From IMG/VR virus record IMGVR_UViG_3300025096_003559, positions 1 through 52,432 of that record: a stretch of 52,432 nucleotides of DNA, one strand, 5' to 3'. Position 1 is the stretch's first letter. Each line of letters starts with the position of its first letter. The position numbers and the translations under genes were made by a program. This DNA comes from a virus. Lineage: Duplodnaviria; Caudoviricetes. The notes beneath the pieces are model-generated. The model saw only the letters and a program-made list of their open reading frames with translations. It was not told the origin of the DNA and searched no databases. Shown here one piece after another: positions 8,420-52,432 of the stretch.

Positions 8420-8437
8420 TAATGTTGATGCCTATAT

Positions 8438-8445: not shown

Positions 8446-8461
8446 ATTGTATATTATTTTT

Positions 8462-22300: not shown

Positions 22301-22315
22301 AAAATATCCTTTTAT

Positions 22316-22323
22316 TAAATATC
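22316..22323 (-). promoter_or_regulatory. Candidate late-promoter motif GATATTTA
   Basis: 15 nt upstream of the ATG at 22300, followed by an AGGA SD. Confidence 0.45.
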
Positions 22324-22324
22324 G

Positions 22325-32636: not shown

Positions 32637-32647
32637 TATATATTAGT

Positions 32648-32902
32648 TTATTGCCAAGGTGCTTTATCGTCAATTGCGTCAATCCAGGCATCGAATACGT
32701 CGCTTTCAGATGTTTCATCATCAATATTTGCATTATGTATCACCGGAGGATTTCCTACTACCAGCCCATTTGGACTATCCGCAAGCTCCCATGCCTCTAA
32801 AACTGGCACAATATCACTTTGCTCTAAGAGGGATCTCTGTAGAGCCATCATCAAAGCTCCTATGGCTTGATTTGAAAGTTTAAATTTTTTAGTGTCAGAC
32901 AT
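32648..32902 (-). CDS. Hypothetical protein
   Basis: 84 aa; AAGGAG SD; start overlaps the upstream stop. Confidence 0.6.
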   Translation of the reverse strand: MSDTKKFKLSNQAIGALMMALQRSLLEQSDIVPVLEAWELADSPNGLVVGNPPVIHNANIDDETSESDVFDAWIDAIDDKAPWQ

Positions 32903-33297
32903 TATATCTCCTTTTGTTTTATTATATCTGTGGTTGAATAGCTTCCTATTCTATCAAAAAACAATAATTTTCCAGCATATTGTTGACCAACAACTGTTTT
33001 GTTTTTCCAGTCGGAGCCTATTACCATTATATCTGGTTTTGTCTCTTTAATCAAATTTTCTAATTCTTTTGTTGACTCAAACACCAACACTTCATCAATA
33101 GCGGATATTGATTCAAGGACATATTTTCTATCTTCAACACAATTTATAGGTCTGCCCTTTCCCTTATCCTGCTTAACTTTTTCATCAGAGTCAATACCTA
33201 TAATTAGTTTATTGCCCAAAGATTTAGCATATTTAAATAGCTCTATGTGCCCTCTATGCAAAACATCAAAACATCCATTGGTCCAAACGATTTTCAT
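32902..33297 (-). CDS. rfaE2: ADP-heptose synthase nucleotidyltransferase domain (HldE domain II / RfaE2-like)
   Basis: NGCFDVLHRGH (HxGH), KGKGRPIN, GSDW, YSTT. Start reassigned to the ATG at 33297 (MKIVWT), giving an ATGA overlap with the kinase stop. Confidence 0.8.
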   Translation of the reverse strand: MKIVWTNGCFDVLHRGHIELFKYAKSLGNKLIIGIDSDEKVKQDKGKGRPINCVEDRKYVLESISAIDEVLVFESTKELENLIKETKPDIMVIGSDWKNKTVVGQQYAGKLLFFDRIGSYSTTDIIKQKEI

Positions 33298-34040
33298 ATA
33301 ATGCTTACACCTCTTTTTTGCACAACCTTTGTGGCGCATTCGTTGGCAAAAATGATCGCTTTTTCTATAGAAGCGGATCTAGAATATTCAACTGCCAATG
33401 CTGCTAAAAAAGTATCTCCAGCGCCTGAGACATCTTTTACTTCAGTTTTTGGCACTGGATATACTACGCCCCTGTATCGGCACCCCTTGTGTCCGAGAGT
33501 CACGATTATTTTATCTTCTAGTTCGGCATTTATGTTTTGTTTAGAAGCTTGATATTCATGAATGTTTATTTTTATAGTAAAAATATCGTTGCAAAAGTCT
33601 CCTATTATCTTTTTGGTATCCAGAAAAACCAATGGATGTTGCTGTGAGATATATTTAATATTCTCTTCGGACAAAACTCCTTTATTATAATCAGATATGA
33701 CAACACAGTCATATGAATTATAATCAATATTTTTTAAAGTGTTTTTAGTAATTTTTCTATATTTGTCTTCATTGCAATCAAGTCTCATAAACATATGGTT
33801 CGTCCTTAAATCAATTAATCTTGTTTTTGTTATTGATTCCCAGCCCCTATTTGTACAGATATCTACATTACAGCCCAATGACGCAATATTGTTTTTAACA
33901 TTAGCCGCCATTCCCCCATTTTCAGTTGAACTAATTAAATTGAAAATCGGTACTGGAGCTTCGGGGCTCAAACGATTACATGTGCCATATTTAAACACAT
34001 CTTTACAAGAATCTCCAATTACAAGTATCCTGTTTGACAC
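33294..34040 (-). CDS. rfaE1: Heptose-7-phosphate kinase-like PfkB protein (HldE domain I / RfaE1-like)
   Basis: 248 aa; ILVIGD, RLSPEAPVP, GGMAANV, ISDYNKG, DVSGAGDT. Confidence 0.82.
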   Translation of the reverse strand: MSNRILVIGDSCKDVFKYGTCNRLSPEAPVPIFNLISSTENGGMAANVKNNIASLGCNVDICTNRGWESITKTRLIDLRTNHMFMRLDCNEDKYRKITKNTLKNIDYNSYDCVVISDYNKGVLSEENIKYISQQHPLVFLDTKKIIGDFCNDIFTIKINIHEYQASKQNINAELEDKIIVTLGHKGCRYRGVVYPVPKTEVKDVSGAGDTFLAALAVEYSRSASIEKAIIFANECATKVVQKRGVSII

Positions 34041-34043
34041 ACA

Positions 34044-35084
34044 TTACCTCTTTAAAAACTTTTTGCCGTTTCTAACTTGCTCTCTCCAATACTCAAGAAG
34101 ATCTTTCATAGTTGTTTCAAATGGGACTTCTGGCTTCCATCCCGTATGTTTTTCAAATTTTGATGTATCTGGTACTTGAAGATCCGCATCAATGGGTCTA
34201 AGTCGCTCAGGATCTGTGTGGATCTCTATGTTGTTAACAGTAGAAAGGCTTATAAGATATTTTAACATATCTCCGACTGTACAGGAAAAAGCACCCCCAA
34301 TATTATAATACTCACCAGCAATAGGGTTTTTTGTAACAAGCATATAATATGCTCTGACCGCATCTCTAACATCAGACCACGTTCTTAAAGAGTCTAGATT
34401 CCCAACCTCTACCACTGGTGGTAACATTTTTGCCTCAATCATGGCAATTTGTTTTGCAAAGGTAGATTCGGCAAAAACATCTCCCCTACGAGGTCCAGTA
34501 TGAGTAAACATTCTAGTTGTCATAACCGTCATTCCATACGCCTCTGCATAGAACCTTCCAATTAAATCGGTGCCCACTTTCGATATAGCATATGGAGAAG
34601 CTGGGTGGAAGCCCACCTCTTCATGAATTGGTAAATATTCTTTTGGCACTCTTCCAAAAACTTCCGACGAAGCACAAACATGAATTATAGGATCTAAATT
34701 TAATTTTTTAATGGCATCTAAAACCTTTGCTGTTCCTATAATATTGGTTTCTAATGTTTCTAAAGGTGAATCAAAGCTGGTTTTTGGATAGCTTTGAGCC
34801 GCCAAATGAAATACATAATCTGGTCTTGTTTTTTCAAATATGGATAATAGAGAACTTAAATCATTAATATCTCCATACACCAGTTCAATATTGTTTTTAT
34901 TATTAATCTGGTGCATCAAGTGTTCAATGTTATCCATACGATCATTCCATCGTACTAGCCCGTATATCTTCCAGTCAGTGTTATCAAGCAAATAATCTGC
35001 TAAATGAGAACCAACCATTCCTGTAATTCCAGTTATAAGAGCTTTTTTTTGGTTATCAGATTGCATTTTGGCACTGTTGTTCAT
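34044..35084 (-). CDS. gmd: GDP-mannose 4,6-dehydratase-family extended SDR
   Basis: 346 aa; ALITGITGMVGSHL, HLAAQS, ASSEVFG, PASPYAISK, GNLDSLR. Confidence 0.75.
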   Translation of the reverse strand: MNNSAKMQSDNQKKALITGITGMVGSHLADYLLDNTDWKIYGLVRWNDRMDNIEHLMHQINNKNNIELVYGDINDLSSLLSIFEKTRPDYVFHLAAQSYPKTSFDSPLETLETNIIGTAKVLDAIKKLNLDPIIHVCASSEVFGRVPKEYLPIHEEVGFHPASPYAISKVGTDLIGRFYAEAYGMTVMTTRMFTHTGPRRGDVFAESTFAKQIAMIEAKMLPPVVEVGNLDSLRTWSDVRDAVRAYYMLVTKNPIAGEYYNIGGAFSCTVGDMLKYLISLSTVNNIEIHTDPERLRPIDADLQVPDTSKFEKHTGWKPEVPFETTMKDLLEYWREQVRNGKKFLKR

Positions 35085-36954
35085 CTATATTATATGTTTC
35101 AACCAAATTAAATAAATTTAAAGCAGAAAATTGTTTTTTCCAATAATCGGACTCAGCTAAAAACTTCATAGCTTTGGATCTTCTAACAATCGCATCTTTT
35201 TCGTTACCTAATTTTTCTTCCACTATGCCAAGAAATAAGTTGGCAATTGGATTGTTATAAGTCATTCGATCACATATGTCTATTAATATTGCTCTTTTTT
35301 TATTTAATTTTGCCTCTTCGTTCATCTGTAATATTGGTTCATAATTAATCCAATAATCTACAAGTAACCAAATATCATGCAACTCTTCTCTTGTTGGAAC
35401 TTTGTTTAGTTCGTATACATCGAATGGGTTAACAAAATTATTAGCCTGCTTTTTCTGAGCCTTTTCTTTAATTCTTTGATTATTTGTATGTCTGACAACA
35501 AAAAGCTTGGAGCTATCCTTATCTTTATCTTTATTCCTTTTTATTGTTGAGTCTTCGATGATGCCTAGTTGTACCATCTGATCATAAATTTCTGTTGATG
35601 GTAATGGTGAAAGTAATTGTACGCCATACCAGTCTAAGCCGACTCTTTGTGACATTTTAACAGTTTCCAAAATTTGTCCCAATGTTTCATTGGGAAATCC
35701 TATTATTAAAAATCCTCTTGTAAATATTTGAGGATATTTATCCATCAGTTCCCCAACTTTGTAATAATGTCTCACTCTTGACGGCTTGTGCACTGTTTTT
35801 AATATATCATCATTGCCAGTTTCTAAGCCAAATGTAAGCCCGATACATCCAGATCTCGAAGCGGCTTCAATTAGTTCTGGATTCTTTGCGGCGGCTGATG
35901 TTATTATTCCATTCGAGGCACACCAAGTTAAGTCTAAATTTTTATCTGCCAACGTATTAAACAAGTCTAATGTTCTATTCGTTTTCCACAATAAATCGTC
36001 ATCAATCCAAGTGACGTGACCAATGTCATATTTTTGATTTAAATCAATGATTTCGTCAACAACTGTATTGACTTCTCTTGAGCGAACACTTTGTCCATTA
36101 AAGTTTCTCACACTACAAAACGAACATCTTGCTCGACATCCTCTATTCGATAATACAGAAGCTGAACGGGTGTCTTTTTGAAGCCATGATCTATAAGAAC
36201 CCACCTCGCCCAACTGACTATAATTGCCAATTTCTAATTCATCATAATCAGGTTTGGCATTAATTTGATAAGAGTTTGGGGGTGCCCTTTTAGATATAGA
36301 ATAATATTTCATATCTTTTAAAATAGCAATCTGACTAAGGGAATTAGCGCTTGACTTTCCGTTAACAACATCAATAAAGTCACAGAAACTTTCGTCTCCC
36401 TCATATAAACCAACAAAATCAATATTTGGTGCCTCTCGTAAAAAATATTCAGGCGCATTTGTAATATGAACGCCGCCCGCAATAATTGGGAGCTTTGGAC
36501 ACTCCTCTTTTATGTAATCTGATGTTCTAATAATCATTTCATGACCCATCGTGAACATACACGTAAGACCTATCAAATCTGGCTGGAAGGTTTCTATTTT
36601 TTGTTTTAGTGTAGAACGCCAAAGAGACGCTGCGATCTCTCCGCATGCCTCATCATCAATGTTTATAGTATCATTGCTCAATTTGTTTAAAATTTCATAA
36701 TTTAGATCCAAAATGTTTACGTTATAACCTCTATTTTTCAGATTAGTACATAATACAGCTAGCCCATAAGGTTGCCATGTATAATATCTTTTATTTTTAA
36801 TTTGCCTTATTTCAAGATGTTCCGTATTTAATGGCAGCGGCTGCACTAAAAGAATATTCTTGCAGCTATTTCTATCAAACAATCTATCAATTTCAGATAT
36901 AAAAATATCCTTTGTTTCATTGCTATGTTCTACATCTTGCGTAATTGTGGTCAT
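35056..36954 (-). CDS. B12-binding radical SAM protein
   Basis: 632 aa; PYGLAVL, IIAGGVH, GDES, SNRGCRARCSFC (CxxxCxxC), FGLETG, FLIIGFPNET. Confidence 0.85.
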   Translation of the reverse strand: MTTITQDVEHSNETKDIFISEIDRLFDRNSCKNILLVQPLPLNTEHLEIRQIKNKRYYTWQPYGLAVLCTNLKNRGYNVNILDLNYEILNKLSNDTINIDDEACGEIAASLWRSTLKQKIETFQPDLIGLTCMFTMGHEMIIRTSDYIKEECPKLPIIAGGVHITNAPEYFLREAPNIDFVGLYEGDESFCDFIDVVNGKSSANSLSQIAILKDMKYYSISKRAPPNSYQINAKPDYDELEIGNYSQLGEVGSYRSWLQKDTRSASVLSNRGCRARCSFCSVRNFNGQSVRSREVNTVVDEIIDLNQKYDIGHVTWIDDDLLWKTNRTLDLFNTLADKNLDLTWCASNGIITSAAAKNPELIEAASRSGCIGLTFGLETGNDDILKTVHKPSRVRHYYKVGELMDKYPQIFTRGFLIIGFPNETLGQILETVKMSQRVGLDWYGVQLLSPLPSTEIYDQMVQLGIIEDSTIKRNKDKDKDSSKLFVVRHTNNQRIKEKAQKKQANNFVNPFDVYELNKVPTREELHDIWLLVDYWINYEPILQMNEEAKLNKKRAILIDICDRMTYNNPIANLFLGIVEEKLGNEKDAIVRRSKAMKFLAESDYWKKQFSALNLFNLVETYNIDEQQCQNAI

Positions 36955-36964
36955 AGTTTATTCG

Positions 36965-38431
36965 CTAAATACTCTTTTCATGTGTGTCTAAAGTTCTGTG
37001 TCCCAAATCTTGTTGGAGCAATTTGCCTGAGTAATATGTATCGAATACTCGACACACAATATTAGTGAACCGCCGACCAAATTCGCTTAAGTGAATGGCG
37101 TCATCTGTAAAGCTTATAATACCATCTTTGTCAAGCACTTTTAAATCGCTTAATTCATCATGAAAATATTGAGCAAAAGATATATCATGCTCCAATTCCA
37201 GTCTTTTAATGTCTACTTCAAAATAATTGCGTAATTTTTGAATAACGTCTTTACGAATAAGATCGTCATTAGTCAGAGCATGTCCGCGATAAACTGGGAA
37301 AATTCCCTTTTCGACAGCGCTCACGTAATCTTCCATATCATAATAATTTTGAAAATAATTATTGGATATTGTGCTCTCACTGCTTATACCAAAACCAATT
37401 ATATTGGTATATTCTCCTGGTGTGACGCCAAGTGAATTCCAGTGCATCTTTTGTTCTTTCATAGCTTCGACCACTTTATCGGTTGACTTGGCAAAATGAT
37501 CGTATCCAGTGCGAACATAGTTCCCTGTTTGTAATACCCCAAGTGCCTCTTCAAACAATATCTTTCTTTCAGAGAAGTCAGGCAGTCTATTGGGGCGAGA
37601 GTCCTTTCCATCCATCATGAGTTTCTGGTGGGGGGCAAACTGTGGCGAATAGTGTAAGAAGTTCAAACATATGCGATCTGGACCAAGCCTTAGACACTCT
37701 TCCGCAGTCCTGCGTATCGTATCAGGAGTCTGATGTGGTAAGCCACATATAATATCAAAATTAACACCGTTTGGAAACAAGTTTTTGATTTCTGGCGTGA
37801 GTAGGTTATCAATCAGTTCTGGGGGCTGTACTCTATTTATTGCTTTCTGAACCTTTAAATCAAAGTCTTGTATTCCTAAAGAGATTCTATTTATTCCCTT
37901 TTTGTGATAATATCTTAATCGTTCCCTTTTTACTCTGCGCGGATCTACCTCAATTGCGAATTCATCCAGATCGTGTAAATTAACGAATTTGCTCAACTTA
38001 TCGCATAAAATATCAAACTCAGGCTCCTCAATAAAGGTAGGCGAGCCTCCTCCAAGATGCACTTCCTTAATAAACAAGGCTATATTATTATCATTTATAA
38101 ATTGTGCAAACAAATCAATCTCTTTATACAAAATATTTAAATAATCTTTTACCTTATTATAGCTCTTTGTAATCGACATGTGACAAGTACAAAAGTAGCA
38201 AAGTTGTTGGCAATATGGAATATGTATATACAATAGGGCACGCTGTGCATTTGACTCTTTAGCAAGTGATTTTAGCACATCTCTAGGCTCTTTGTCTTGA
38301 TGTGTAAGTGACCAAAATCTCTTATGAGGGTACTGAGTGTACATAAATGCAGAAGTGCCATATTGTTTTACCAAATCGTCCATCCGAATCTGCTCTTTAA
38401 TTTTCTGGCTTTTGTTTTTTTTAAAAATCAT
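36965..38431 (-). CDS. hemN: HemN-family radical SAM protein (coproporphyrinogen III oxidase-like, divergent)
   Basis: 488 aa; YTQYP, LYIHIPYCQQLCYFCTC, LGGGSPT, IEVDPR, NRISLGIQDF, GLPHQT, DHFA. The RNFQGY motif is replaced by WNSLGV, so the symbol denotes family only. Confidence 0.75.
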   Translation of the reverse strand: MIFKKNKSQKIKEQIRMDDLVKQYGTSAFMYTQYPHKRFWSLTHQDKEPRDVLKSLAKESNAQRALLYIHIPYCQQLCYFCTCHMSITKSYNKVKDYLNILYKEIDLFAQFINDNNIALFIKEVHLGGGSPTFIEEPEFDILCDKLSKFVNLHDLDEFAIEVDPRRVKRERLRYYHKKGINRISLGIQDFDLKVQKAINRVQPPELIDNLLTPEIKNLFPNGVNFDIICGLPHQTPDTIRRTAEECLRLGPDRICLNFLHYSPQFAPHQKLMMDGKDSRPNRLPDFSERKILFEEALGVLQTGNYVRTGYDHFAKSTDKVVEAMKEQKMHWNSLGVTPGEYTNIIGFGISSESTISNNYFQNYYDMEDYVSAVEKGIFPVYRGHALTNDDLIRKDVIQKLRNYFEVDIKRLELEHDISFAQYFHDELSDLKVLDKDGIISFTDDAIHLSEFGRRFTNIVCRVFDTYYSGKLLQQDLGHRTLDTHEKSI

Positions 38432-46352: not shown

Positions 46353-46355
46353 TTT

Positions 46356-47279
46356 CTATCTCTTCTTTATTGTGCGAAGTCCGCAATACTCCGCAACTTT
46401 GATAATAATTTTTTCTGCACTGGGAGGCAAATTATCAACGTCTGGATAAAATCCAGCCGATTTGGGTTCCAAACATAGAGTTCTCACTCTTTTATTTACT
46501 TTCATCATCATCGTGTGCGCGATACTACTAGCTGCTCCTTCTTCATAATCATCATCAAGAACTACACCACCAAATTTAGAATTTGCCAAGGCTATCTCCC
46601 AGTCTTCTTTAAAATTAAATGGTTTAATCCAAAGCTGATGAATAATGTTTACTTTTAGTCCTAATTTCTCTAATTCTTTTTGAGCTTCCGCTGCGGCGAA
46701 TCTTGTAATAGAAATAGGAAAAAGAGTAATATCAGCTTTGGGGTGTATAATATTAAAAAGCTCTTTGCTATTATCATAGCTTTTTCGGTGTTCCGATATA
46801 TAATAAACATCATCATCGTTCATAAAACTTTTATAAGCAAACTCATATTCTCGGGGTGTCATTGGGGATGCAATTTTTACACCCGGCATTCTGTGATAAA
46901 TTGAATGATGTGATGAGCCCGCAACTGGACCGATGCCTCCTTCCATCGCAATACCTCTTACCAATAAAGGACAAGGACGTTGCCATATTTCTTTTGATTT
47001 CATTGCATAGTTTGCAATAATAGGAGAGTTATACCACTGGAAGCCTTGATATCGCACAACATAAATTGGTCTTTTTCCTGCTAAAGCTGCTCCCACAACG
47101 ATGCCACCGCCTGCGACATCTGCCATAGAAAGCTCAATCATTCCATCTTTTTCATATAATTTGGGAAGAGTTCCCCCAACCCAGCCAACAGCAGTTAAAC
47201 ATTGTCCATAACACCTGGAACCTTGTTTCAAGTGTTGGTGCGTGATGTCTTTTATTGTTTCTCTAACTGTTTTTGCCAT
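46356..47279 (-). CDS. TPP-dependent pyruvate/2-oxoacid dehydrogenase E1 beta-like subunit
   Basis: 307 aa; GAALAGKRPI, PGVKIASP.TP, EH; transketolase C-terminal-like WIKPF; overlaps the alpha subunit gene. Confidence 0.78.
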   Translation of the reverse strand: MAKTVRETIKDITHQHLKQGSRCYGQCLTAVGWVGGTLPKLYEKDGMIELSMADVAGGGIVVGAALAGKRPIYVVRYQGFQWYNSPIIANYAMKSKEIWQRPCPLLVRGIAMEGGIGPVAGSSHHSIYHRMPGVKIASPMTPREYEFAYKSFMNDDDVYYISEHRKSYDNSKELFNIIHPKADITLFPISITRFAAAEAQKELEKLGLKVNIIHQLWIKPFNFKEDWEIALANSKFGGVVLDDDYEEGAASSIAHTMMMKVNKRVRTLCLEPKSAGFYPDVDNLPPSAEKIIIKVAEYCGLRTIKKR

Positions 47280-48085
47280 ATCTGTTCGACCATTTGTTTA
47301 GTTTGTTCATGAATTTGCGAAGCCTCGTGACCAAGGATATCCATTTGTTCTTGATATCTATCAAAAATATTTTCGTCATCAATACCAGCCCCAGAATGCC
47401 AAAATTTGCGATGAGTATTAATATTTACTAACATGGGCTTTTCAAAAACGCTTACTAAAGCCTGTTTGATTTGTGCGGGGTCATCTTCAATATCAAGCCC
47501 TTGCATATTAAATGCTTCAGCAACATTGTGCATATTCCAGTTTCTTCTTACCTTCTTTTCAGTTAGAATAGAAAGGTTATTATCCTCAACTACGAAAAGT
47601 ATGGGTAATCTCTTTGTCGAAGCCCAGCCAAGCGCCCCTAAAACATAATCTTCTTCGGCAGATGCATCTCCCATATATACTATTGTTGGATGCTGGGTTT
47701 GGTAACAGTGCCCGACCGCAATCGGTACTTGACTCCCCATCAAACCATCATGTCCAAAAATATTTTTTTCCTTTGACTGTATGGACGCAGATCCGCCCAT
47801 GCCATTAGCGCATCCACTTTTTCTACCTAATAGTTCATCTATAAGTCTTTCTATTGGCGCATCAAATGCGAGATAAGTAGAATGCCCTCTATGTTGTATA
47901 AATATATTTGGCTGCACATTTAATTCTTTCATTACCTCTGCAATTGAGGCAGAAATATATTCTTGTCCTGCTGATAAATAAATAGGAAATTTAAACATCT
48001 TGTTTGTAATTCCATCATAAACATATTGTTCAAAATTTCTACATAATGATGCTCTTTTAAACACATTTAGTCTAAAATTATTCAT
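47252..48085 (-). CDS. TPP-dependent dehydrogenase E1 alpha-like subunit
   Basis: 277 aa; YLSAGQE, HRGH, GMGGS, GDASAEE...FVVEDNN (TPP-binding motif). Confidence 0.82.
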   Translation of the reverse strand: MNNFRLNVFKRASLCRNFEQYVYDGITNKMFKFPIYLSAGQEYISASIAEVMKELNVQPNIFIQHRGHSTYLAFDAPIERLIDELLGRKSGCANGMGGSASIQSKEKNIFGHDGLMGSQVPIAVGHCYQTQHPTIVYMGDASAEEDYVLGALGWASTKRLPILFVVEDNNLSILTEKKVRRNWNMHNVAEAFNMQGLDIEDDPAQIKQALVSVFEKPMLVNINTHRKFWHSGAGIDDENIFDRYQEQMDILGHEASQIHEQTKQMVEQIWQKQLEKQ

Positions 48086-48473
48086 ATTTGTTCTTTATAT
48101 GTTGCAATGTATCTGACCAGTTTTCAAAATGATACCCTTTGTCATCAATATAAAGCTGTGCCCTTGGTTTTTCTGCTGTAACTTCTTGTATATACTGCAT
48201 AACATTGTGGCTCGTTAACCACTCGATGACTAATTCAGTGCCGGTTTTTCCATTCACAAGCGGACGATTTGGTTTTGCCTTAGCGGTAAAAATAACTATA
48301 TTATAGCTTTCTGATAATTGTTTTATCGCCTCTAAGGAGCCCTCAATAGGCTCTCCGTAACAGGTGCCATCATGAAACCCCTTGTCAAAAGTGTGTACTA
48401 CGCCATCAAAATCAATTGCAACATTTTTTAAATCATTTTCAAACCCTGGTGGTACTTCTTTATTGCTAAACAT
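48078..48473 (-). CDS. Small HAD-superfamily phosphatase
   Basis: 131 aa; AIDFDGV (DxD), IFTA, KP...YIDD. Confidence 0.75.
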   Translation of the reverse strand: MFSNKEVPPGFENDLKNVAIDFDGVVHTFDKGFHDGTCYGEPIEGSLEAIKQLSESYNIVIFTAKAKPNRPLVNGKTGTELVIEWLTSHNVMQYIQEVTAEKPRAQLYIDDKGYHFENWSDTLQHIKNKYE

Positions 48474-49137
48474 TTTTATCCATAACCATTACCATGGTAT
48501 TATTCTTAATTTTATTGAACACTTTTGTAAGATCACTAATATTATTGGCTGCCACAATATCACCAGCCCCAGCTACGTTAATGTTGTATTCAGTGACGAT
48601 ACCGCCCTGCAAAAACATAATGTTTGTGTCTTGCTTCACTTTATCAAAAAAGCTAATATCGTCTATTTTTGTTACCGTGAGTTCTGAATTTGCAATATGA
48701 TATGTCCGTGGCTCAGAGTCTGTGGAATCTTCAATCCAAAGACACGCCTCTTCTTTGGGATATTCAAAAGTAGAGTTTTCATAAGGCTTGCCTTCCCTTC
48801 CGTAACTGTCTTTAAACCTCACTAAATCATGTTTATCTACCGGGGCTTCAATTTCCAAAACCCATGCACCCCTTTCTCCGGTTGCCATGGTAGAGTGAAA
48901 AAGCCCTTTTCTAATCATGATTTTATTCAATGGATCTAATTTAAATTTATTGCTCAAAAACGATACTTCTGCATTGCCATCTAACAATATTAATCCAGTT
49001 GTTTTGTTAGGATGACAATGCATTGAAGTGTTATGTCCTTTTTGGATATACAAGCACCAAAGTGCAACCTCATCGTTTTCATATGCTAAGTATTCGTAGC
49101 CCCATGGTTTTTTGACTATATTGTGTTTATGACCCAT
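48466..49137 (-). CDS. Cupin-domain protein (mannose-6-phosphate isomerase type II-like N-terminus)
   Basis: 223 aa; KPWGYE, TSMHCH..K, FHS, D.VR..D.YGR. Confidence 0.7.
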   Translation of the reverse strand: MGHKHNIVKKPWGYEYLAYENDEVALWCLYIQKGHNTSMHCHPNKTTGLILLDGNAEVSFLSNKFKLDPLNKIMIRKGLFHSTMATGERGAWVLEIEAPVDKHDLVRFKDSYGREGKPYENSTFEYPKEEACLWIEDSTDSEPRTYHIANSELTVTKIDDISFFDKVKQDTNIMFLQGGIVTEYNINVAGAGDIVAANNISDLTKVFNKIKNNTMVMVMDKNV

Positions 49138-49140
49138 TTT

Positions 49141-49683
49141 TTATCTTCCACTAGACCACTCATTATATACATCAAACGATGTTAACATCCATTGCCCCAT
49201 CCACTTATAGTGAGGACATGTAATGATGTTATTAGATACTACTGCGGGGGCGTCTACATATGTTGCGCCAGAGTTAGCAATATCGTCTCTAATGCTATAA
49301 TATCCAGAAATTTCCCTTCCCTCTGTTACCTTGGAAGAGATTAACATCTGTGCACCATGGCATATACAAGCGATCACCTTACCTCTACTATCCCATTCAC
49401 GGATAAAATCAAGAACTTGTGTTTCTTGGCGTAGCTTTTCCAATGCCTTTACCCCGCCGGGTATAACCATTAAGTCATACTCATTCAAAAATTGTTCTGA
49501 CTTAGTATGCAACTCGTCGGCTGTTCTAGTACACTCCATATATGTTCCTAAAATTCCATGAATTCGCCCTAACTTATCGGCTAGAATATCTACTTCGAAC
49601 TCTTCTTCAAGAAGCCGATAATAAGGATATATAACTTCGTGATCTTGAAATTTGCTAAAAGTAACTATTAATGCTTTTTTCAT
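49141..49683 (-). CDS. DJ-1/PfpI family protein
   Basis: 180 aa; FQDHE..YP, IPGG, ICHG nucleophile elbow, YVDAPAVVSNNIIT. Confidence 0.85.
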   Translation of the reverse strand: MKKALIVTFSKFQDHEVIYPYYRLLEEEFEVDILADKLGRIHGILGTYMECTRTADELHTKSEQFLNEYDLMVIPGGVKALEKLRQETQVLDFIREWDSRGKVIACICHGAQMLISSKVTEGREISGYYSIRDDIANSGATYVDAPAVVSNNIITCPHYKWMGQWMLTSFDVYNEWSSGR

Positions 49684-49693
49684 TTTTTCCTCT

Positions 49694-50200
49694 TTAAGAC
49701 TTAATTGTCCTGTCTCTTAATTGTAACATAGGATTGTCAATTGGCCAAATTATATTAAGCCTTTTGTCATCCCATTTTAAAGTAAACTGATCTGACACAT
49801 CTGGGTATTCTCCTGGATAATGCCATTTGTAGTGAAATACACACTGATTACTTAAGACCAAAAACCCATTTCCAATCCCCGGTGAAAGTAACACTTGTGT
49901 CCTATTTTTATCGTTCAATATTTCCCAATCCCATTGCAAATATGTTGGAGAATCTTTGCGATTGTCAACAGTGACAAAATATATTTCTCCATGTAAACAT
50001 GTGATAAGCTTGTGTGATTTAAAATCTCCGTGAATTCCTCTTAAAACATTTTTCCGCGATGTGGACACTTTATCATGATTATATGGCAGATCATTCTCGC
50101 CAGCGCCAGCTTTCCACAGCGTCCATAGTTCTCCTCTAAAATCTGTATATATATCAGGAGAAATATAGTTTACTCCATCCGTTATTCTTCTTGTACCCAA
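49694..50200 (-). CDS. rmlC: dTDP-4-dehydrorhamnose 3,5-epimerase family (RmlC-like cupin)
   Basis: 168 aa; DFRG, SRKNVLRGIHG, VDNRKDSPTY, GNGFLVLS, YK, WDD...I.WP. Confidence 0.8.
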   Translation of the reverse strand: MGTRRITDGVNYISPDIYTDFRGELWTLWKAGAGENDLPYNHDKVSTSRKNVLRGIHGDFKSHKLITCLHGEIYFVTVDNRKDSPTYLQWDWEILNDKNRTQVLLSPGIGNGFLVLSNQCVFHYKWHYPGEYPDVSDQFTLKWDDKRLNIIWPIDNPMLQLRDRTIKS

Positions 50201-50601
50201 CTAATTTCCCAATCTTTAAACTCAGCAGCCAAACAATCAATCTTGTAGTCTTTCCTTCCGCCGACTACTTCTTGAATTTTGTTTTTAGCAACATTTCGTA
50301 TACCATTTAACCCATGTGTTAGTTCTAAATTATTTCCATTCTTAATACCTTTTCGATAATTTGATTCATTATGCCAAATATGTAAATTCATCTGTGATAA
50401 CACTATAATTGCTCTTAACACATTTGCATCTAATATAGCTGAATTTTCTTTTATTATCAAATCAATATCATATAAAATATTAGAAATTTCTTTAGAGTAC
50501 TCTTCCTTATGCTCCAATATAAACACTTCCTTAAGTTGGATAATGGAAAGTCGATCAATTAATTCTGATAATGTTGGGAGATATTTTCTTTGTTTTTGCA
50601 T
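50182..50601 (-). CDS. Helical hypothetical protein (DUF4254/DUF6165-like)
   Basis: 139 aa; TLSELIDRLSIIQLKE...N..IWH.E...R...N..RN pattern. Confidence 0.55.
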   Translation of the reverse strand: MQKQRKYLPTLSELIDRLSIIQLKEVFILEHKEEYSKEISNILYDIDLIIKENSAILDANVLRAIIVLSQMNLHIWHNESNYRKGIKNGNNLELTHGLNGIRNVAKNKIQEVVGGRKDYKIDCLAAEFKDWEISWVQEE

Positions 50602-50613
50602 TCAATTCCTCAT

Positions 50614-51588
50614 TTATAGTTTCAACGTTTTTTTGATAGTTTCAAATACACAATCATCTATGCAATTATATTTTTGTACACGCTGAAAATTATCTTGTAC
50701 GTGGTCAAACATATCATAATAAAGTTGCGGTGAAATGTTCTCTAAGATATCTACTAATTCTGGTCCGGTGTCAAAGGTTAGAATTCCTTTTTCGTTAAAG
50801 AAATCTCCGATATTCGGGCATCCCCAAAAAATAGGAATTGTGCCTGTTCTAAAACCACTCATGGGGTGATCACCAAAATAGTTTTTTTCTTTGGCGTTAA
50901 TAATGCTTATATAAAAGTAATAATCTCTTAATGCTTCAACGTGTCTATCAAAGGGTTTATATGCCCTTCCCCATACATCAACATCATATCCCTTCTTCTT
51001 TATAACATCAACAACTATGTGTCTTAGTCTGTGACCACGTATTGCATTTCCTCCGACCAATCCTCCGTGCATTGCGTCAGCGTGTAGTGTTGGGTGTCCC
51101 TTTTTTGATGCCAGTATTGATGCAAGCTTTGTTTTCTTGTATATTTGTTGTTCTTCATATTTAAATGCCGTGGACGCCCCAAGCGGAGCGGTGTGCACAT
51201 ATTTTGGACCCCGAGCTATCAACTCACTATCACAGGTAAAAATATAATCAAATTTGTGCTCGACGCGTTTTGTATGTTCTAAAATAAATGGATGAATAGT
51301 CCTACATTCTTGTATTAGAGCTATTTTATATTTTGTAGTGGTGTGATCTACAAGAGGGGATAAAAGATCTTTTTCTGTAAACATGGTAATATCGACGCCC
51401 TCTTCAGATAAAACATTTAAAGGCTTTAAAGCGCAATCGAGCAAGCCTCCTCCATATATCCATTCAACCTCCTTCGGTCGAGCATGTTCTCCCATTATAT
51501 CCGCGAACGAATAGTAATCACCCTCTTTGTTATAATTTACTGGAGAGATGACGCTACAATAAAAATTGACTTTTGTTCTTTTAGGCAT
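50614..51588 (-). CDS. Glycosyltransferase family 10-like (alpha-1,3-fucosyltransferase fold), divergent
   Basis: 324 aa; GHRLRH, D.WGR, YYFYISIINA...NYFGDH...GTIPIFWGCPNIGDFFN. Confidence 0.6.
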   Translation of the reverse strand: MPKRTKVNFYCSVISPVNYNKEGDYYSFADIMGEHARPKEVEWIYGGGLLDCALKPLNVLSEEGVDITMFTEKDLLSPLVDHTTTKYKIALIQECRTIHPFILEHTKRVEHKFDYIFTCDSELIARGPKYVHTAPLGASTAFKYEEQQIYKKTKLASILASKKGHPTLHADAMHGGLVGGNAIRGHRLRHIVVDVIKKKGYDVDVWGRAYKPFDRHVEALRDYYFYISIINAKEKNYFGDHPMSGFRTGTIPIFWGCPNIGDFFNEKGILTFDTGPELVDILENISPQLYYDMFDHVQDNFQRVQKYNCIDDCVFETIKKTLKL

Positions 51589-51892
51589 TCTGCTCCTTAA
51601 AAAATCTCTCTGAGTTTATAGCCTTATCACATATGAAAATATCATATGATGGTTTTCGCATTTTTAGTTCATTGTGTTTCGCACCCCACTTGAGTAATTG
51701 TTCTTGTGTTACATCCGTCCAGTCTATGCCAGTAGTGCCGCCTCGGGCTGTCCAATAAACAATCGTGTGTCCATCATCGTATAAGGTATTGATTTTTGTT
51801 ATTCTTTCATGATTCGGTAGTGCATCTGGATAATGCCTGTCTCCATCGTAATAACAGATTGTCTCGTCTATGTCAATATAATAAACCATCAA
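51581..51892 (-). CDS. Small HAD-like phosphatase (capsule-biosynthesis phosphatase type)
   Basis: 103 aa; YIDIDETIC, YWTARG, KP..D..ICDKA. Confidence 0.72.
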   Translation of the reverse strand: MMVYYIDIDETICYYDGDRHYPDALPNHERITKINTLYDDGHTIVYWTARGGTTGIDWTDVTQEQLLKWGAKHNELKMRKPSYDIFICDKAINSERFFKEQNA

Positions 51893-52257
51893 TCGCCTTT
51901 TTCAACTCTGTAGCTATCACTGTCAAAATGCTGGGTGGAGAATTCAAACAATTCAGAATCTTCTAATGCTATCATTCGATGTCTTAGTCCCCGATAAATA
52001 TGAAAGTTGTCGCCAGCATTTAAAACAAGTTCGTTGGCATTCTCAAGATCGTCTTCTTCGGAATATTTAATTAACATCCTTCCAGATTGCAAGTAAAATA
52101 CCTCGTCTTTCAACACATGATAATGCCAAGAGCATTTTTTGCCTTTGTTAAAAAACAAAAGCTTTCCGCAATATTCTTCATTGTTTACAATCCAGCGCTC
52201 CCACCCCCAGCCTTTGGGAACGTGCTTCATTTCTAAGGTAGCGGTATTTTCTACCAA
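51889..52257 (-). CDS. Cupin-domain protein (sugar isomerase-like)
   Basis: 122 aa; KGWG.E, CSWHYH..KDE.FY, H..., EFST. TTG start has a GGAGG SD; alternative ATG at 52230. Confidence 0.72.
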   Translation of the reverse strand: MVENTATLEMKHVPKGWGWERWIVNNEEYCGKLLFFNKGKKCSWHYHVLKDEVFYLQSGRMLIKYSEEDDLENANELVLNAGDNFHIYRGLRHRMIALEDSELFEFSTQHFDSDSYRVEKGD

Positions 52258-52432
52258 ACTGTTTTTCCTCCATCAATAACAACGTTCTCGCCGGTCATAT
52301 ACGAGCTAGCGTCAGAACAAAGGAAGACAATTGCCCCCTTGTATTCGTTTATATCCGCCATACGCCCCATTGGAATAATATTAGATAACTTATCCACGAA
52401 GTTTTCTGGGTGGTTGTTATAGACGCCTGTAG
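52251..52432 (-). CDS. SDR oxidoreductase, C-terminal fragment (gene begins beyond the window)
   Basis: Manual translation TGVYNNHPENFVDKLSNIIPMGRMADINEYKGAIVFLCSDASSYMTGENVVIDGGKTVW*; classical SDR C-terminus. Confidence 0.8.
   Translation of the reverse strand, partial: TGVYNNHPENFVDKLSNIIPMGRMADINEYKGAIVFLCSDASSYMTGENVVIDGGKTVW

What the first reader, a model, noticed from the sequence alone, without database searches (positions are those of the whole stretch)
32902..52432. About 20 kb secondary-metabolite-like nucleotide-sugar tailoring operon inside a phage
Seen: about 22 co-oriented, overlapping or nearly abutting genes directly upstream of the sigma and baseplate genes, combining deoxysugar enzymes with four radical SAMs, an Fe/2OG dioxygenase, a TPP enzyme pair, cupins and a GT10-like transferase. 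No flippase, polymerase or ABC exporter occurs in the window, and the cluster continues beyond it. Inference: the phage builds a heavily modified (deoxy, branched, methylated, hydroxylated) sugar in the cytoplasm and attaches it to virion proteins, consistent with the [ST]GS signal. Alternatives are host-surface remodelling or DNA hypermodification. This is the best candidate here for an undescribed system.
Basis: partly seen in the sequence, partly recalled or inferred. Interest (0 to 1): 0.85.

Follow-up and report, generated by a model that had tools for sequence, protein, structure and literature searches.

The report
Phage operon for branched deoxyheptose sugar
A fragment of a large marine phage carries a real 20-kb operon that most likely builds an unusual branched, methylated seven-carbon sugar. 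The operon is a viral copy of a cell-surface sugar pathway common in ocean bacteria, and what the phage attaches the sugar to is still unknown.

Summary
Window 32902-52432 carries 22 tightly packed minus-strand genes plus a truncated 23rd that runs off the contig. They lie directly upstream of a late-sigma gene and baseplate genes of a marine myovirus fragment. The contig is not chimeric: contigs from three other sequencing runs bridge position 32,902, and six or more independent viral contigs keep the same adjacency.

The precursor is a heptose, not mannose. The genes include an HldA/HldC-like kinase and nucleotidyltransferase. The 4,6-dehydratase and the 3,5-epimerase are each closest to Campylobacter GDP-heptose enzymes. 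There is also a ColD-type 3-dehydratase and a PDH-E1 alpha/beta pair of the kind that adds two-carbon branches to 4-ketosugars. Three B12-radical-SAM enzymes, one HemN-like enzyme, a PhyH dioxygenase and several reductases complete the set.

The core cassette occurs in 42 viral contigs and 80 cellular contigs (SAR11, other marine Proteobacteria, Nitrospira, CPR, DPANN). The cellular copies sit beside Wzx, Wzy and WecA genes. The viral copies never do.

The acceptor is unresolved: virion proteins about 45%, host envelope about 30%. The [ST]GS signal is not specific to this cluster. Sugar islands of this kind in marine myophages are already described, so this is a new variant of a known kind.

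The parts
52251..52430 (-). 3' end of a truncated SDR gene; the operon runs off the contig here
   Evidence: 5'-open ORF of 59 aa ending in an SDR-type C-terminus
51889..52257 (-). Small cupin (122 aa)
   Evidence: Cupin_2, E 8.8e-8; found in 20 of 42 viral loci
51581..51892 (-). Possible small HAD-like phosphatase (103 aa); GmhB candidate
   Evidence: Only a weak HAD_PNKP match, E 0.035
50614..51588 (-). GT10-like glycosyltransferase (fucosyltransferase-like, so a GDP-sugar donor is expected)
   Evidence: PF00852, 25.7 bits against a cut-off of 23.9. The nearest atlas clusters are 86-96% GT10 and 80-93% viral.
50182..50601 (-). Virus-only conserved 139-aa four-helix protein of unknown function
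   Evidence: No Pfam or PHROG family. Found in 18 of 42 viral loci and 0 of 80 cellular loci. At least 8000 clusters in metagenomes. AlphaFold2 pLDDT 90. No convincing fold match.
49694..50200 (-). Heptose-type 3,5- (or 3-/5-) epimerase, RmlC fold
   Evidence: Best solved relatives are C. jejuni GDP-D-glycero-4-keto-D-lyxo-heptose epimerases (8DCO, 164 bits), against 87 bits for dTDP RmlC
49141..49683 (-). DJ-1/PfpI protein; part of the conserved core, role unknown
   Evidence: PF01965, E 4e-34; found in 41 of 42 viral and 50 of 80 cellular loci
48466..49137 (-). 223-aa cupin (PMI C-terminal-like); part of the conserved core
   Evidence: PF01050, E 1.9e-5; found in 40 of 42 viral and 55 of 80 cellular loci; no relative among solved structures
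48078..48473 (-). Small HAD/NT5C-like protein (131 aa); GmhB candidate
   Evidence: Weak NT5C match, E 0.002
47252..48085 (-). TPP-binding E1 alpha-like subunit of the branching enzyme
   Evidence: PF00676, E 6e-20. GDA-X27-NN motif, invariant in 9 of 9 aligned homologues.
46356..47279 (-). E1 beta-like subunit
   Evidence: Transket_pyr plus Transketolase_C; found in 38 of 42 viral and 79 of 80 cellular loci
45009..46352 (-). B12-binding radical SAM enzyme (probable C-methyltransferase)
   Evidence: Radical_SAM plus B12-binding domains; CPYSCSFC motif; 81% identical copies only in L006 and L007
43816..45009 (-). ColD-type PMP-dependent sugar 3-dehydratase
   Evidence: Best solved relative is ColD/WbdK (2GMS, E 2e-58). 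In the printed alignment His-His takes the place of the catalytic Lys. That the first His matches ColD His188 follows from the H188N variant chain in the same output.
42879..43823 (-). GDP-fucose-synthase-like SDR (4-reductase or epimerase)
40865..42889 (-). KedN5-family B12 radical SAM C-methyltransferase-like enzyme
   Evidence: NF033712, 257 bits (below its cut-off of 700); CPFSCAYC motif
40183..40884 (-). Classical short-chain reductase; candidate for reducing the side-chain keto group
   Evidence: adh_short, E 1e-37
39240..40229 (-). Extended SDR (epimerase or reductase)
38428..39243 (-). PhyH-family Fe(II)/2-oxoglutarate dioxygenase
   Evidence: PF05721, E 4e-17
36965..38431 (-). HemN-like radical SAM enzyme
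   Evidence: TIGR00538, 367 bits, above its cut-off of 325; CQQLCYFC motif
35056..36954 (-). B12-binding radical SAM enzyme
   Evidence: CRARCSFC motif
34044..35084 (-). Nucleotide-heptose 4,6-dehydratase
   Evidence: Best solved relative is 7US5, GDP-D-glycero-D-manno-heptose 4,6-dehydratase (E 4e-113, 381 bits), against about 154 bits for GDP-mannose dehydratases
33294..34040 (-). HldA-like heptose-7-phosphate kinase (PfkB family)
   Evidence: TIGR02198, E 7e-40 (below cut-off). The only solved relative is HldA, 4E84. Found in 18 of 42 viral and 0 of 80 cellular loci.
32902..33339 (-). HldC-like heptose-1-phosphate nucleotidyltransferase
   Evidence: TIGR02199, E 6e-38 (below cut-off)
31350..32036 (-). 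Context: late sigma factor immediately downstream of the operon
   Evidence: phrog_234, E 2.6e-7
20495..22729 (-). Context: baseplate wedge genes
   Evidence: phrog_219, phrog_10646, phrog_261 and phrog_43

Best explanation
This is a genuine phage operon of at least 19.5 kb that encodes a self-contained cytoplasmic pathway for a nucleotide-activated, heavily tailored deoxyheptose.

Proposed route. Every step is inferred from homology; none was assayed.
1. Host heptose-7-phosphate is phosphorylated at C1 by the HldA-like kinase.
2. One of the small HAD-like proteins removes the 7-phosphate.
3. The HldC-like transferase activates the sugar as a nucleotide sugar.
4. The 4,6-dehydratase gives the 4-keto-6-deoxyheptose.
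5. The ColD-type enzyme removes the 3-hydroxyl.
6. The E1 alpha/beta TPP pair decarboxylates a 2-oxo acid (pyruvate by precedent) and adds the acyl-anion equivalent to C4, giving a C-branched tertiary alcohol.
7. The SDRs and the RmlC-like epimerase set the stereochemistry and reduce the keto groups.
8. The three B12 radical SAMs, the HemN-like enzyme and the PhyH dioxygenase add C-methyl and hydroxyl groups.
9. Soluble phage glycosyltransferases use the product. These are the GT10-like enzyme here, and GT4, GT2 and GT11 enzymes in complete relatives.

Origin. The operon is the viral form of a cassette exchanged with surface-glycan loci of planktonic bacteria.

Acceptor. I favour phage structural proteins (fibres or baseplate) glycosylated in the cytoplasm before assembly.

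My odds: sugar-pathway reading about 0.75; virion proteins as acceptor about 0.45.
For: Chemistry:
- The dehydratase matches the GDP-heptose 4,6-dehydratase 7US5 at 381 bits, against about 154 bits for GMD.
- The epimerase matches GDP-4-keto-heptose epimerases at 164 bits, against 87 bits for RmlC.
- The DegT-family enzyme matches ColD at E 2e-58 and keeps the His-for-Lys change.
- The kinase and transferase match HldE domains I and II far above any other family. HldA is the kinase's only solved relative.
- These are the same four enzyme types as the characterised C. jejuni GDP-3,6-dideoxyheptose route (PMC10440746, abstract read).
- E1 alpha/beta pairs that add a two-carbon branch from pyruvate to C4 of NDP-ketosugars are documented for Plm8/Plm9 and AviB1/B2 (PMC4802897, passages; PMC12247030, passages).
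- The TPP motif is present, and all four radical-SAM motifs are present.

Viral and intact:
- Contigs of runs X3, X5 and X8 bridge position 32,902.
- The sigma-proximal small genes and the cluster genes lie together in L002-L005, L014 and L018.
- The order cluster, then sigma, then baseplate is kept in the complete relative G001.

Cytoplasmic acceptor:
- No ORF with 6 or more membrane segments occurs in the window or in the complete genomes G001 and G002.
- None occurs in 0 of 35 viral loci of 12 kb or more, against 21 of 62 cellular loci.
- Of 10 cellular membrane ORFs sampled, 7 were Wzx, Wzy or WecA-type.
- Complete relatives add GT4, GT2 and GT11 enzymes and methyltransferases.

Position: the operon is co-oriented with and directly upstream of the late sigma and baseplate genes. 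In a second, T4-like viral clade the cassette lies about 6 kb from the major capsid gene.

Precedent: phage-encoded virion glycosylation in mycobacteriophages, as cited in PMC12619734 (passage).
Against: - No enzyme was assayed and no glycan or glycoprotein was seen.
- No GmhA isomerase is present in G000-G004, so the first step depends on the host.
- The activation genes are of the ADP-beta-heptose type, while the tailoring enzymes are closest to GDP-alpha-sugar enzymes. The nucleotide carrier and anomer are therefore unresolved.
- The kinase, the transferase and most tailoring enzymes score below NCBIfam's curated cut-offs.
- The HemN-like protein passes the cut-off for true coproporphyrinogen dehydrogenase, so it could be a heme gene.
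- On the acceptor, the only sequence hint ([ST]GS) is also found in a phage without the cluster.
- Timing of expression is unknown. No T4-type late promoter enrichment was found.
- In G002 about 30 kb of small genes separate the cluster from the baseplate.
- Published opinion for similar islands favours modification of the host surface (PMC7029224).
Confidence: 0.45

Rival explanations
1. The chemistry is the same, but the sugar is passed to the host's own lipid-carrier machinery. It remodels the host's O-antigen, capsule or glycoprotein during infection, giving superinfection exclusion or receptor masking.
For: - Homologues of the cassette lie in cellular loci with Wzx, Wzy and WecA-type genes.
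- The E1-alpha tree nests the viral clades among marine Proteobacteria.
- The island varies by gene cassettes, like an O-antigen locus.
- This is the explanation offered in print for pelagimyophage and cyanophage islands (PMC7029224; PMC12801897).
Against: - No initiating transferase, flippase, polymerase, ligase or permease occurs in any of the 35 viral loci or the two complete genomes.
- A novel multi-sugar glycan would have to be accepted by host export proteins.
- Known seroconverting phages use membrane proteins (recalled, not tested here).
- The position next to late and structural genes fits a late product better.
Confidence: 0.3
2. The sugar is attached to phage DNA as a hypermodification that protects against host nucleases.
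For: Phage glycosyltransferases that hypermodify DNA with diverse glycans are known (cited in PMC12619734, passage).
Against: - No ThyA-family hydroxymethylase was found in 0 of 5 related records, including 0 of 2 complete genomes. The same search found the family in 10 of 14 control genomes.
- The cassette's homologues sit in surface-glycan loci of cells.
- The island lies beside structural genes, not replication genes.
- The window itself is only 29% of a genome, so absence cannot be shown for this phage.
Confidence: 0.04
3. The product is a free or otherwise non-structural cytoplasmic molecule. Examples are a glycosylated small metabolite, or a modification of host proteins that serves takeover or counter-defence.
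For: - The enzyme set resembles secondary metabolism: E1-type branching, B12 radical SAMs, and TylC3-type C-methyltransferases in G002.
- All proteins are soluble.
- A virus-only protein of unknown role is embedded in the operon.
Against: - No aglycone-forming genes (PKS, NRPS, RiPP precursor) appear among the 22 ORFs.
- The cellular homologues are in glycan-export loci.
Confidence: 0.1
4. The cluster is bacterial DNA (an O-antigen or capsule locus) joined to phage DNA by misassembly, or it flanks a prophage.
For: - G+C falls from 0.40-0.46 in the structural part to about 0.35 in the cluster.
- Close homologues exist in bacteria.
Against: - Independent contigs from three other runs bridge the boundary.
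- The same adjacency is seen in six or more viral contigs and in a complete 185,927-bp relative, where phage genes lie on both sides.
- There is no wzx or wzy.
- A virus-only gene lies inside the cluster.
Confidence: 0.02

Closest known systems
Campylobacter jejuni capsule pathway to GDP-3,6-dideoxy-heptoses (4,6-dehydratase, PLP-dependent C3-dehydratase, C5 or C3/C5 epimerase, C4-reductase; PMC10440746)
   Same: All four enzyme types are present. The dehydratase and the epimerase have the C. jejuni heptose enzymes as their best solved relatives. The C3-dehydratase is ColD-like.
   Different: - Activation here is by an HldA/HldC-type kinase and transferase, not HddA/HddC.
- There is no GmhA.
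- The phage adds a TPP branching pair, four radical SAMs, a dioxygenase, DJ-1 and extra cupins.
- The genes are in a virus and have no export genes beside them.
PDH-E1 alpha/beta-like branching enzymes of antibiotic sugars (Plm8/Plm9 for paulomycose, AviB1/AviB2 for eurekanate; 'alpha-KADH2' class in PMC12247030)
   Same: A split alpha/beta TPP enzyme with no E2 or E3 partner, encoded beside enzymes that make an NDP-4-keto-deoxysugar.
   Different: - Those enzymes are reported mainly from actinomycete secondary metabolism. Here the pair is in a phage and in surface-glycan loci of SAR11, Nitrospira, CPR and DPANN genomes.
- Direct sequence comparison with Plm8 or AviB1 was not done.
Yersiniose A pathway (4,6-dehydratase, 3-deoxygenation, TPP enzyme YerE, reductase YerF)
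   Same: The same logic: a 3,6-dideoxy-4-ketosugar receives a two-carbon branch at C4 from pyruvate, and the branch is then reduced (PMC12247030, passages).
   Different: - YerE is a single-chain enzyme of the decarboxylase class acting on a CDP-hexose.
- Here the enzyme is an E1 alpha/beta pair and the sugar is most likely a heptose.
Hypervariable 'host recognition cluster' and LPS-like gene islands of marine myophages (pelagimyophages, PMC7029224; cyanophages S-SCSM2R, S-SCSM1 and P-SSM2, PMC12801897; Synechococcus phage Bellamy genes 200-228)
   Same: - A large co-oriented island next to tail or structural genes.
- It holds rfaE-like genes, UDP-glucose dehydrogenase, NadE, many glycosyltransferases and radical-SAM cassettes that differ between close relatives.
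- Its function is untested.
- Bellamy has a 53.7% identical dehydratase beside genes annotated kinase and nucleotidyl transferase.
   Different: - The window's backbone is not T4-like. Its nearest cultured baseplate relatives are Microcystis phage Mel-JY01 (31%) and Flavobacterium phage immuto (30%).
- No record in the phage collection holds a close E1-alpha homologue. The best matches are 28-29% identical over 60% of the protein.
- No record there holds the 139-aa protein.
Virion glycosylation by phage-encoded glycosyltransferases in mycobacteriophages (Freeman et al. 2023, seen only as cited in PMC12619734); glycan clusters of giant viruses (recalled)
   Same: Soluble virus-encoded transferases with no export machinery. 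In giant viruses there are also whole nucleotide-sugar pathways that vary between lineages.
   Different: No glycosylated protein has been shown for this phage group. The mycobacteriophage systems have two or so transferases and no sugar-tailoring pathway.

Membership tests
Nucleotide-heptose activation route (GmhA, HldA/HldE kinase, GmhB, HldC/HldE transferase) | PfkB-family heptose-7-phosphate kinase | tested here: met
   TIGR02198, E 6.7e-40, 137 bits (below the equivalog cut-off of 345). The next best family is ribokinase at 48 bits. The only solved relative is HldA, 4E84.
Nucleotide-heptose activation route (GmhA, HldA/HldE kinase, GmhB, HldC/HldE transferase) | Cytidylyltransferase-fold heptose-1-phosphate nucleotidyltransferase | tested here: met
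   TIGR02199, E 5.7e-38, 130 bits (cut-off 181.5)
Nucleotide-heptose activation route (GmhA, HldA/HldE kinase, GmhB, HldC/HldE transferase) | SIS-domain sedoheptulose-7-phosphate isomerase GmhA | tested here: not met
   PF13580 was found in 0 of 5 records (the window, G001-G004, including two complete genomes). The same search hit 11 of 14 control genomes. The host enzyme is presumably used.
Nucleotide-heptose activation route (GmhA, HldA/HldE kinase, GmhB, HldC/HldE transferase) | HAD-type heptose bisphosphate phosphatase GmhB | tested here: inconclusive
   Two small ORFs give only weak HAD-type matches (NT5C E 0.002; HAD_PNKP E 0.035)
GDP-6-deoxy / 3,6-dideoxy-heptose tailoring (C. jejuni type) | Heptose-specific 4,6-dehydratase | tested here: met
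   7US5, E 4e-113, 381 bits, against 154 bits or less for GDP-mannose dehydratases. Substrate not assayed.
GDP-6-deoxy / 3,6-dideoxy-heptose tailoring (C. jejuni type) | ColD-type C3-dehydratase with His replacing the Schiff-base Lys | tested here: met
   2GMS, E 2.2e-58. The query reads GHH where ColD reads SHH, and the H188N variant chain reads SNH at that place.
GDP-6-deoxy / 3,6-dideoxy-heptose tailoring (C. jejuni type) | Cupin C3/C5 epimerase of the heptose clade | tested here: met
   8DCO, E 2.2e-47, against 1.7e-23 for the best dTDP RmlC
GDP-6-deoxy / 3,6-dideoxy-heptose tailoring (C. jejuni type) | GDP-alpha-heptose as substrate (HddA/HddC activation) | tested here: not met
   The activation genes are HldA/HldC-like. 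No GHMP kinase or NTP_transferase domain appears among the 22 ORFs. The nucleotide actually used cannot be told from sequence.
PDH-E1 alpha/beta-like sugar branching enzymes (AviB1/B2, Plm8/9) | Split E1_dh alpha subunit and Transket_pyr/Transketolase_C beta subunit with a TPP-binding motif | tested here: met
   GDA-X27-NN motif, invariant in 9 of 9 homologues.
PDH-E1 alpha/beta-like sugar branching enzymes (AviB1/B2, Plm8/9) | No E2 or E3 partners; encoded beside 4-ketosugar-forming enzymes | tested here: met
   No lipoyl, acyltransferase or dihydrolipoamide dehydrogenase domain appears among the 22 ORFs. The ColD-like gene is found in 34 of 42 viral loci.
PDH-E1 alpha/beta-like sugar branching enzymes (AviB1/B2, Plm8/9) | C-C bond formation at C4 of an NDP-4-ketosugar with pyruvate as donor | not testable with these tools
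   Needs an enzyme assay
Wzx/Wzy- or ABC-dependent O-antigen/capsule locus | Polytopic initiating transferase, flippase, polymerase/ligase or permease in the locus | tested here: not met
   No ORF with 6 or more predicted membrane segments occurs in the window, G001 or G002, nor in 0 of 35 viral loci, against 21 of 62 cellular loci. The cellular ones include Wzx, Wzy_C and Glycos_transf_4. The hydropathy scan is crude.
Phage DNA sugar hypermodification | ThyA-family pyrimidine hydroxymethylase that provides the attachment point | tested here: not met
   PF00303 was found in 0 of 5 related records. The window itself is a fragment, so for this phage the test is incomplete.
Hypervariable sugar island ('host recognition cluster') of marine myophages | A large island beside tail or baseplate genes holding rfaE-like genes, sugar dehydrogenases, glycosyltransferases and radical-SAM cassettes that differ between relatives | tested here: met
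   compared with the description in PMC7029224
Phage virion glycosylation systems | Glycan demonstrably attached to capsid or tail proteins | not testable with these tools
   Needs virions. The [ST]GS enrichment is not specific to the cluster.

The most novel reading that the evidence does not exclude
An abundant, uncultured group of marine myophages coats its fibres or baseplate with a glycan built around a previously unknown higher-carbon sugar. That sugar would be a C4-branched, multiply C-methylated 3,6-dideoxyheptose made by an E1-type TPP enzyme plus B12 and HemN-like radical SAM enzymes. The same sugar would be a widespread but unrecognised component of the cell surfaces of SAR11, Nitrospira, CPR bacteria and DPANN archaea, so the virion would imitate its host's surface. 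The virus-only 139-aa protein embedded in the operon would be a new component that adapts the cellular pathway to the viral acceptor.
Probability: 0.25. Interest if true: 0.8.

Novelty: new variant of a known kind. Interest (0 to 1): 0.6.

Why it matters
Large sugar-gene islands have been reported in marine phages for years, always with the acceptor guessed. This window gives a chemically explicit, testable reading of one such island.

Three further points matter:
- E1-type sugar branching is described mainly from antibiotic pathways. Here its genes turn up in phages and in surface-glycan loci of some of the most abundant or least known microbes (SAR11, Nitrospira, CPR, DPANN).
- The viral copies consistently drop all export genes. 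That is the kind of contrast that can settle whether marine phages glycosylate their particles.
- A cultured cyanophage, Bellamy, carries a related heptose cluster and offers an experimental way in.

Tried and rejected
- Megablast of the whole cluster against the phage collection gave no match.
- T4-type late promoter TATAAATA: 5 matches against 5.4 expected, none upstream of cluster genes.
- The sigma-70 promoter and terminator scan of the cluster was uninformative. Promoter-like sites were somewhat above the shuffles (109 against 79.7) and terminator-like sites were at chance.
- No tRNA genes were found.
- Pfam on eight structural proteins, including the 3492-aa and 1668-aa proteins, gave no family. 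PHROGs on several of them also gave nothing.
- The 139-aa protein has no Pfam or PHROG family. Foldseek found no hit at E 0.001 or better. The best VIA-align match was Z 7.9, to the cytoplasmic domain of an archaeal OST1. That is below what helical bundles reach by chance, so I read nothing into it.
- Pfam on 10 longer proteins containing the 139-aa domain gave no informative partner: one weak DUF4254 match, one weak methyltransferase match, and one HNH/NUMOD3 match.
- The literature on DUF4254 and DUF6165 gave nothing useful.
- No RNA holder was listed among the sequencing runs, so timing of expression could not be examined.
- The [ST]GS motif as a glycosylation sequon is rejected as evidence after the immuto control.
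- Supplementary files of the papers were not consulted. Gene tables of the pelagimyophage and S-SCSM2R papers may list E1-like or heptose genes that I could not see.
- Complex prediction was not used, because no acceptor candidate was specific enough to justify it.

Full report
**What is there.** The window is one whole IMG/VR virus record of 52,432 bp, linear, estimated 29% complete. All plausible genes lie on the minus strand. From 32902 to 52257 there are 22 ORFs that overlap or nearly abut. A 23rd ORF, an SDR C-terminus at 52251-52430, is cut by the contig end, so the operon continues beyond the window. Downstream in the direction of transcription lie four small genes, a late sigma factor (31350-32036, phrog_234, E 2.6e-7), two VanY/M15 peptidase-domain proteins, baseplate wedge proteins and giant proteins with no known family. 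G+C is about 0.35 in the operon and 0.40-0.46 in much of the structural part.

**Enzyme content.** There are three B12-binding radical SAMs and one HemN-like radical SAM, each with a CxxxCxxC motif. There is a PhyH dioxygenase and an E1 alpha/beta TPP pair. The alpha subunit has a GDA-X27-NN motif, which is invariant in 9 of 9 aligned homologues. The rest are three cupins, three SDRs plus a 4,6-dehydratase, a DegT-family enzyme, DJ-1/PfpI, two weak HAD-like ORFs and a weak GT10-like transferase. The protein atlas places that transferase among mostly viral GT10 clusters.

**A more specific reading: a heptose, not mannose.**
- The 4,6-dehydratase matches the C. jejuni GDP-D-glycero-D-manno-heptose 4,6-dehydratase 7US5 at 381 bits (E 4e-113). 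GDP-mannose dehydratases score about 154 bits or less.
- The RmlC-like cupin matches the C. jejuni GDP-4-keto-heptose 3,5- and 3-epimerases at 157-165 bits. dTDP RmlC enzymes score at most 87 bits.
- The PfkB protein and the small transferase match the two domains of HldE far better than any other family, although below the equivalog cut-offs. The kinase's only solved relative is the heptose-7-phosphate kinase HldA.
- The DegT-family enzyme is closest to ColD/WbdK, the PMP-dependent 3-dehydratase (E 2e-58). In the printed alignment it has His-His where aminotransferases carry the catalytic Lys.

Dehydratase, C3-dehydratase, epimerase and reductase are exactly the four enzyme types shown to make GDP-3,6-dideoxyheptoses in C. 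jejuni (PMC10440746, abstract).

**The E1 alpha/beta pair.** It fits the class that attaches a pyruvate-derived two-carbon branch to C4 of NDP-4-ketosugars. Plm8/Plm9 and AviB1/B2 belong to this class (PMC4802897, passages). A review calls it alpha-KADH2 and contrasts it with YerE of the yersiniose pathway (PMC12247030, passages).

I therefore read the operon as a route to a C4-branched 3,6-dideoxyheptose-type nucleotide sugar, further C-methylated and hydroxylated by the radical SAM enzymes and PhyH. All steps are inferred from homology.

**Open points in the chemistry.**
- No GmhA isomerase was found in the window or in four relatives.
- The activation genes are of the ADP-beta type, while the tailoring enzymes resemble GDP-sugar enzymes.
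- The roles of DJ-1, the 223-aa cupin and the HemN-like protein are unknown. The HemN-like protein even passes the cut-off for genuine HemN.

**Viral origin and contig integrity.** Near-identical sequence is held by 24 listed marine runs from 21 studies. I laid the contigs of four runs that are not flagged as possible sources. In three of them a contig bridges 32,902: X3 record 6 (32795-33153), X5 record 15 (32797-33165) and X8 record 28 (32599-33150). Independently, viral contigs L002-L005, L014 and L018 carry both cluster genes and the sigma-proximal phage genes. In the complete 185,927-bp relative G001 the order is cluster, small genes, sigma, baseplate, with phage genes on both sides. The chimera and prophage-flank idea is rejected.

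**Distribution in viruses.** The E1 alpha protein has relatives of 52-80% identity in 42 viral contigs. Counts within 10 kb, among those 42 loci:
- E1 beta: 38
- the 223-aa cupin: 40
- DJ-1: 41
- the ColD-like or DegT gene: 34
- the HldA-like kinase: 18
- a dehydratase at 40% identity or more: 14

The HemN-like gene has no counterpart in the 42 loci. The 35056 and 40865 radical SAMs have none at 40% identity or more. The 45009 radical SAM has close copies only in L006 and L007. So the window is a conserved scaffold with radical-SAM genes inserted.

Complete relatives extend the island upstream:
- G001 adds GT4 (two), GT2, GT11, a further GT-like protein, FkbM and DUF268 methyltransferases, UDP-glucose dehydrogenase and NAD synthase.
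- G002 adds two GT4 enzymes and two TylC3-type SAM-dependent sugar C-methyltransferases.

A second viral clade with the cassette is T4-like. Its major capsid gene lies about 6 kb from E1 alpha.

In the collection of deposited phage genomes:
- the best E1 alpha matches are 28-29% identical over 60% of the protein;
- the baseplate's nearest relatives are Microcystis phage Mel-JY01 and Flavobacterium phage immuto, at about 30%;
- Synechococcus phages Bellamy and SynMITS9220M01 have a 53-54% identical dehydratase;
- in Bellamy that dehydratase lies in a sugar island of about 24 kb with genes annotated kinase, nucleotidyl transferase, phosphatases, five glycosyltransferases, NadE and UDP-glucose dehydrogenase.

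**Distribution in cells.** A scan of one genome per species returned 80 contigs with E1 alpha at 39-70% identity. They come from Pelagibacteraceae (including a complete genome), gammaproteobacterial single-cell genomes, SAR116, marine and freshwater Betaproteobacteria, Nitrospira, Planctomycetota, CPR bacteria and DPANN archaea.
- E1 beta accompanies E1 alpha in 79 of 80, DJ-1 in 50 and the cupin in 55.
- Relatives of the window's radical SAM, HemN-like and PhyH genes occur in subsets, for example L128, L104 and L146.
- The HldA-like kinase and the 139-aa protein occur in 0 of 80.

In a quick maximum-likelihood tree of 115 E1 alpha sequences, three loci with an in-frame stop and the short matches were left out. 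The 39 viral rows need at least 3 and most parsimoniously 5 changes of label, and they nest among marine Proteobacteria. The window sits in an 8-row all-viral clade with 99% support. This indicates repeated exchange between phages and plankton. The direction of transfer was not tested.

**The contrast that bears on function.** A hydropathy scan found no ORF with 6 or more membrane segments in the window, in G001 or in G002. It found none in 0 of 35 viral loci of 12 kb or more (653 kb in total). It found at least one in 21 of 62 cellular loci (1202 kb). I sampled 10 of the cellular membrane ORFs:
- four were WecA/MraY-type initiating transferases;
- two were Wzx flippases;
- one was a Wzy_C ligase or polymerase;
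- the other three were LPG_synthase_TM, EamA and a protein with no family.

So the cellular cassettes serve lipid-carrier-linked surface glycans, and the viral versions consistently lack the membrane steps.

**Acceptor.**
- DNA is unlikely. No ThyA-family hydroxymethylase was found in 0 of 5 related records, two of them complete.
- I favour virion proteins (about 0.45). The reasons are the missing export genes, the self-sufficient activation module that only the viral copies carry, the many soluble transferases, and the position beside late and structural genes in two unrelated backbones.
- Remodelling of the host envelope through host machinery (about 0.30) remains a serious rival. It is the explanation offered in print (PMC7029224; PMC12801897).

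The [ST]GS signal does not help to decide.
- It is strongly enriched in the 3492-aa protein (23 observed against 4.8 expected) and in the 517-aa protein (12 against 1.3). In both cases 0 of 300 shuffles reached the observed count.
- It is enriched in 7 of 138 ORFs of G001 and 12 of 126 ORFs of G002.
- It is equally enriched in fibre and spike proteins of phage immuto, for example 26 against 5.9. That phage has no E1 alpha homologue and no such cluster upstream of its baseplate.

**An unexplained component.** The 139-aa ORF at 50182-50601 is the best conserved gene of the island, at 73-83% identity in relatives.
- It is restricted to viral loci and has no family.
- It is very common in marine metagenomes. 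The search saturated at 8000 clusters, and the 120 listed are 80% identical or more. There are 521 representatives at the 50% clustering level.
- It has no match in the deposited phage collection.
- A confident model (pLDDT 90) is a four-helix bundle with no convincing structural relative.

**Novelty.** The class is described: a large hypervariable sugar island beside tail genes of marine myophages, with rfaE, UDP-glucose dehydrogenase, glycosyltransferases and radical-SAM cassettes (PMC7029224; PMC12801897). My full-text searches found none of the following:
- the branched-deoxyheptose reading;
- the E1-type branching enzyme in phages;
- its spread through surface-glycan loci of SAR11, Nitrospira, CPR and DPANN;
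- the systematic loss of export genes in the viral copies.

Supplementary tables were closed and may hold relevant gene lists. I rate this a new variant of a known kind, with moderate to high interest.

Noticed in passing
window 50182-50601 (-): Virus-only 139-aa four-helix protein inside the sugar operon. It saturates a search at 8000 metagenomic clusters, has no match in the deposited phage collection, and has no fold relative. It occurs in nearly the same viral loci as the HldA-like kinase.
   Followed up: partly
window 36965-38431 (-): The HemN-like radical SAM scores above NCBIfam's cut-off for true oxygen-independent coproporphyrinogen oxidase (367 against 325 bits), yet it sits inside a sugar operon. 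Homologues of 36-50% identity lie within 10 kb of E1 alpha in 9 of 80 cellular loci.
   Followed up: partly
window 8462-18940 and 18942-20495 (-); L154 (Flavobacterium phage immuto): [ST]GS tripeptides are 5-9 times over-represented in fibre, spike and giant structural proteins of this phage lineage, whether or not the sugar cluster is present. The sites are scattered, not tandem repeats. The cause is unknown.
   Followed up: partly
window 28778-29596 and 29601-31025 (-): Two adjacent proteins with VanY/M15 peptidase domains lie between the sigma gene and the baseplate genes. They are probably virion-associated cell-wall hydrolases.
   Followed up: no
L028, L029, L030 (E1 alpha match): Three related viral loci carry one in-frame stop codon inside the E1 alpha gene. 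This could be a pseudogene, a sequencing error shared by related assemblies, or recoding.
   Followed up: no
L078 (2.9-kb contig of a gammaproteobacterial assembly); L074 (162,964-bp contig of a 'Rickettsiales' MAG): L078 nests inside a viral E1 alpha clade. L074 has a phage-like contig length and the highest cluster identities among the 'cellular' hits. Either may be viral DNA binned with a cell genome.
   Followed up: no
L057:17265-18503 and L058:2225-3373 (G002): The complete relative G002 carries two TylC3-type SAM-dependent sugar C-methyltransferases where the window has radical SAM enzymes. C-methylation seems to be achieved by different enzyme classes in different relatives.
   Followed up: no
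L155 (Synechococcus phage Bellamy, genes 200-228): This cultured cyanophage has a sugar island of about 24 kb with a 53.7% identical heptose-type dehydratase. The island also carries genes annotated kinase, nucleotidyl transferase, phosphatases, aldolase, carbamoyltransferase, NadE, UDP-glucose dehydrogenase and five glycosyltransferases. It is a possible experimental model.
   Followed up: partly
window 31608-31808: In three of the four runs laid (X3, X6, X8), summed contig depth spikes 8- to 20-fold over a 200-bp part of the late-sigma gene. Many loose ends start near 31717-31723. This is probably a stretch conserved among many co-occurring related phages.
   Followed up: no
window 32000-52432 compared with 8000-14000 and 23000-26000: G+C is about 0.35 across the sugar operon and 0.43-0.46 in parts of the structural region. 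This is consistent with acquisition from a low-G+C donor.
   Followed up: no
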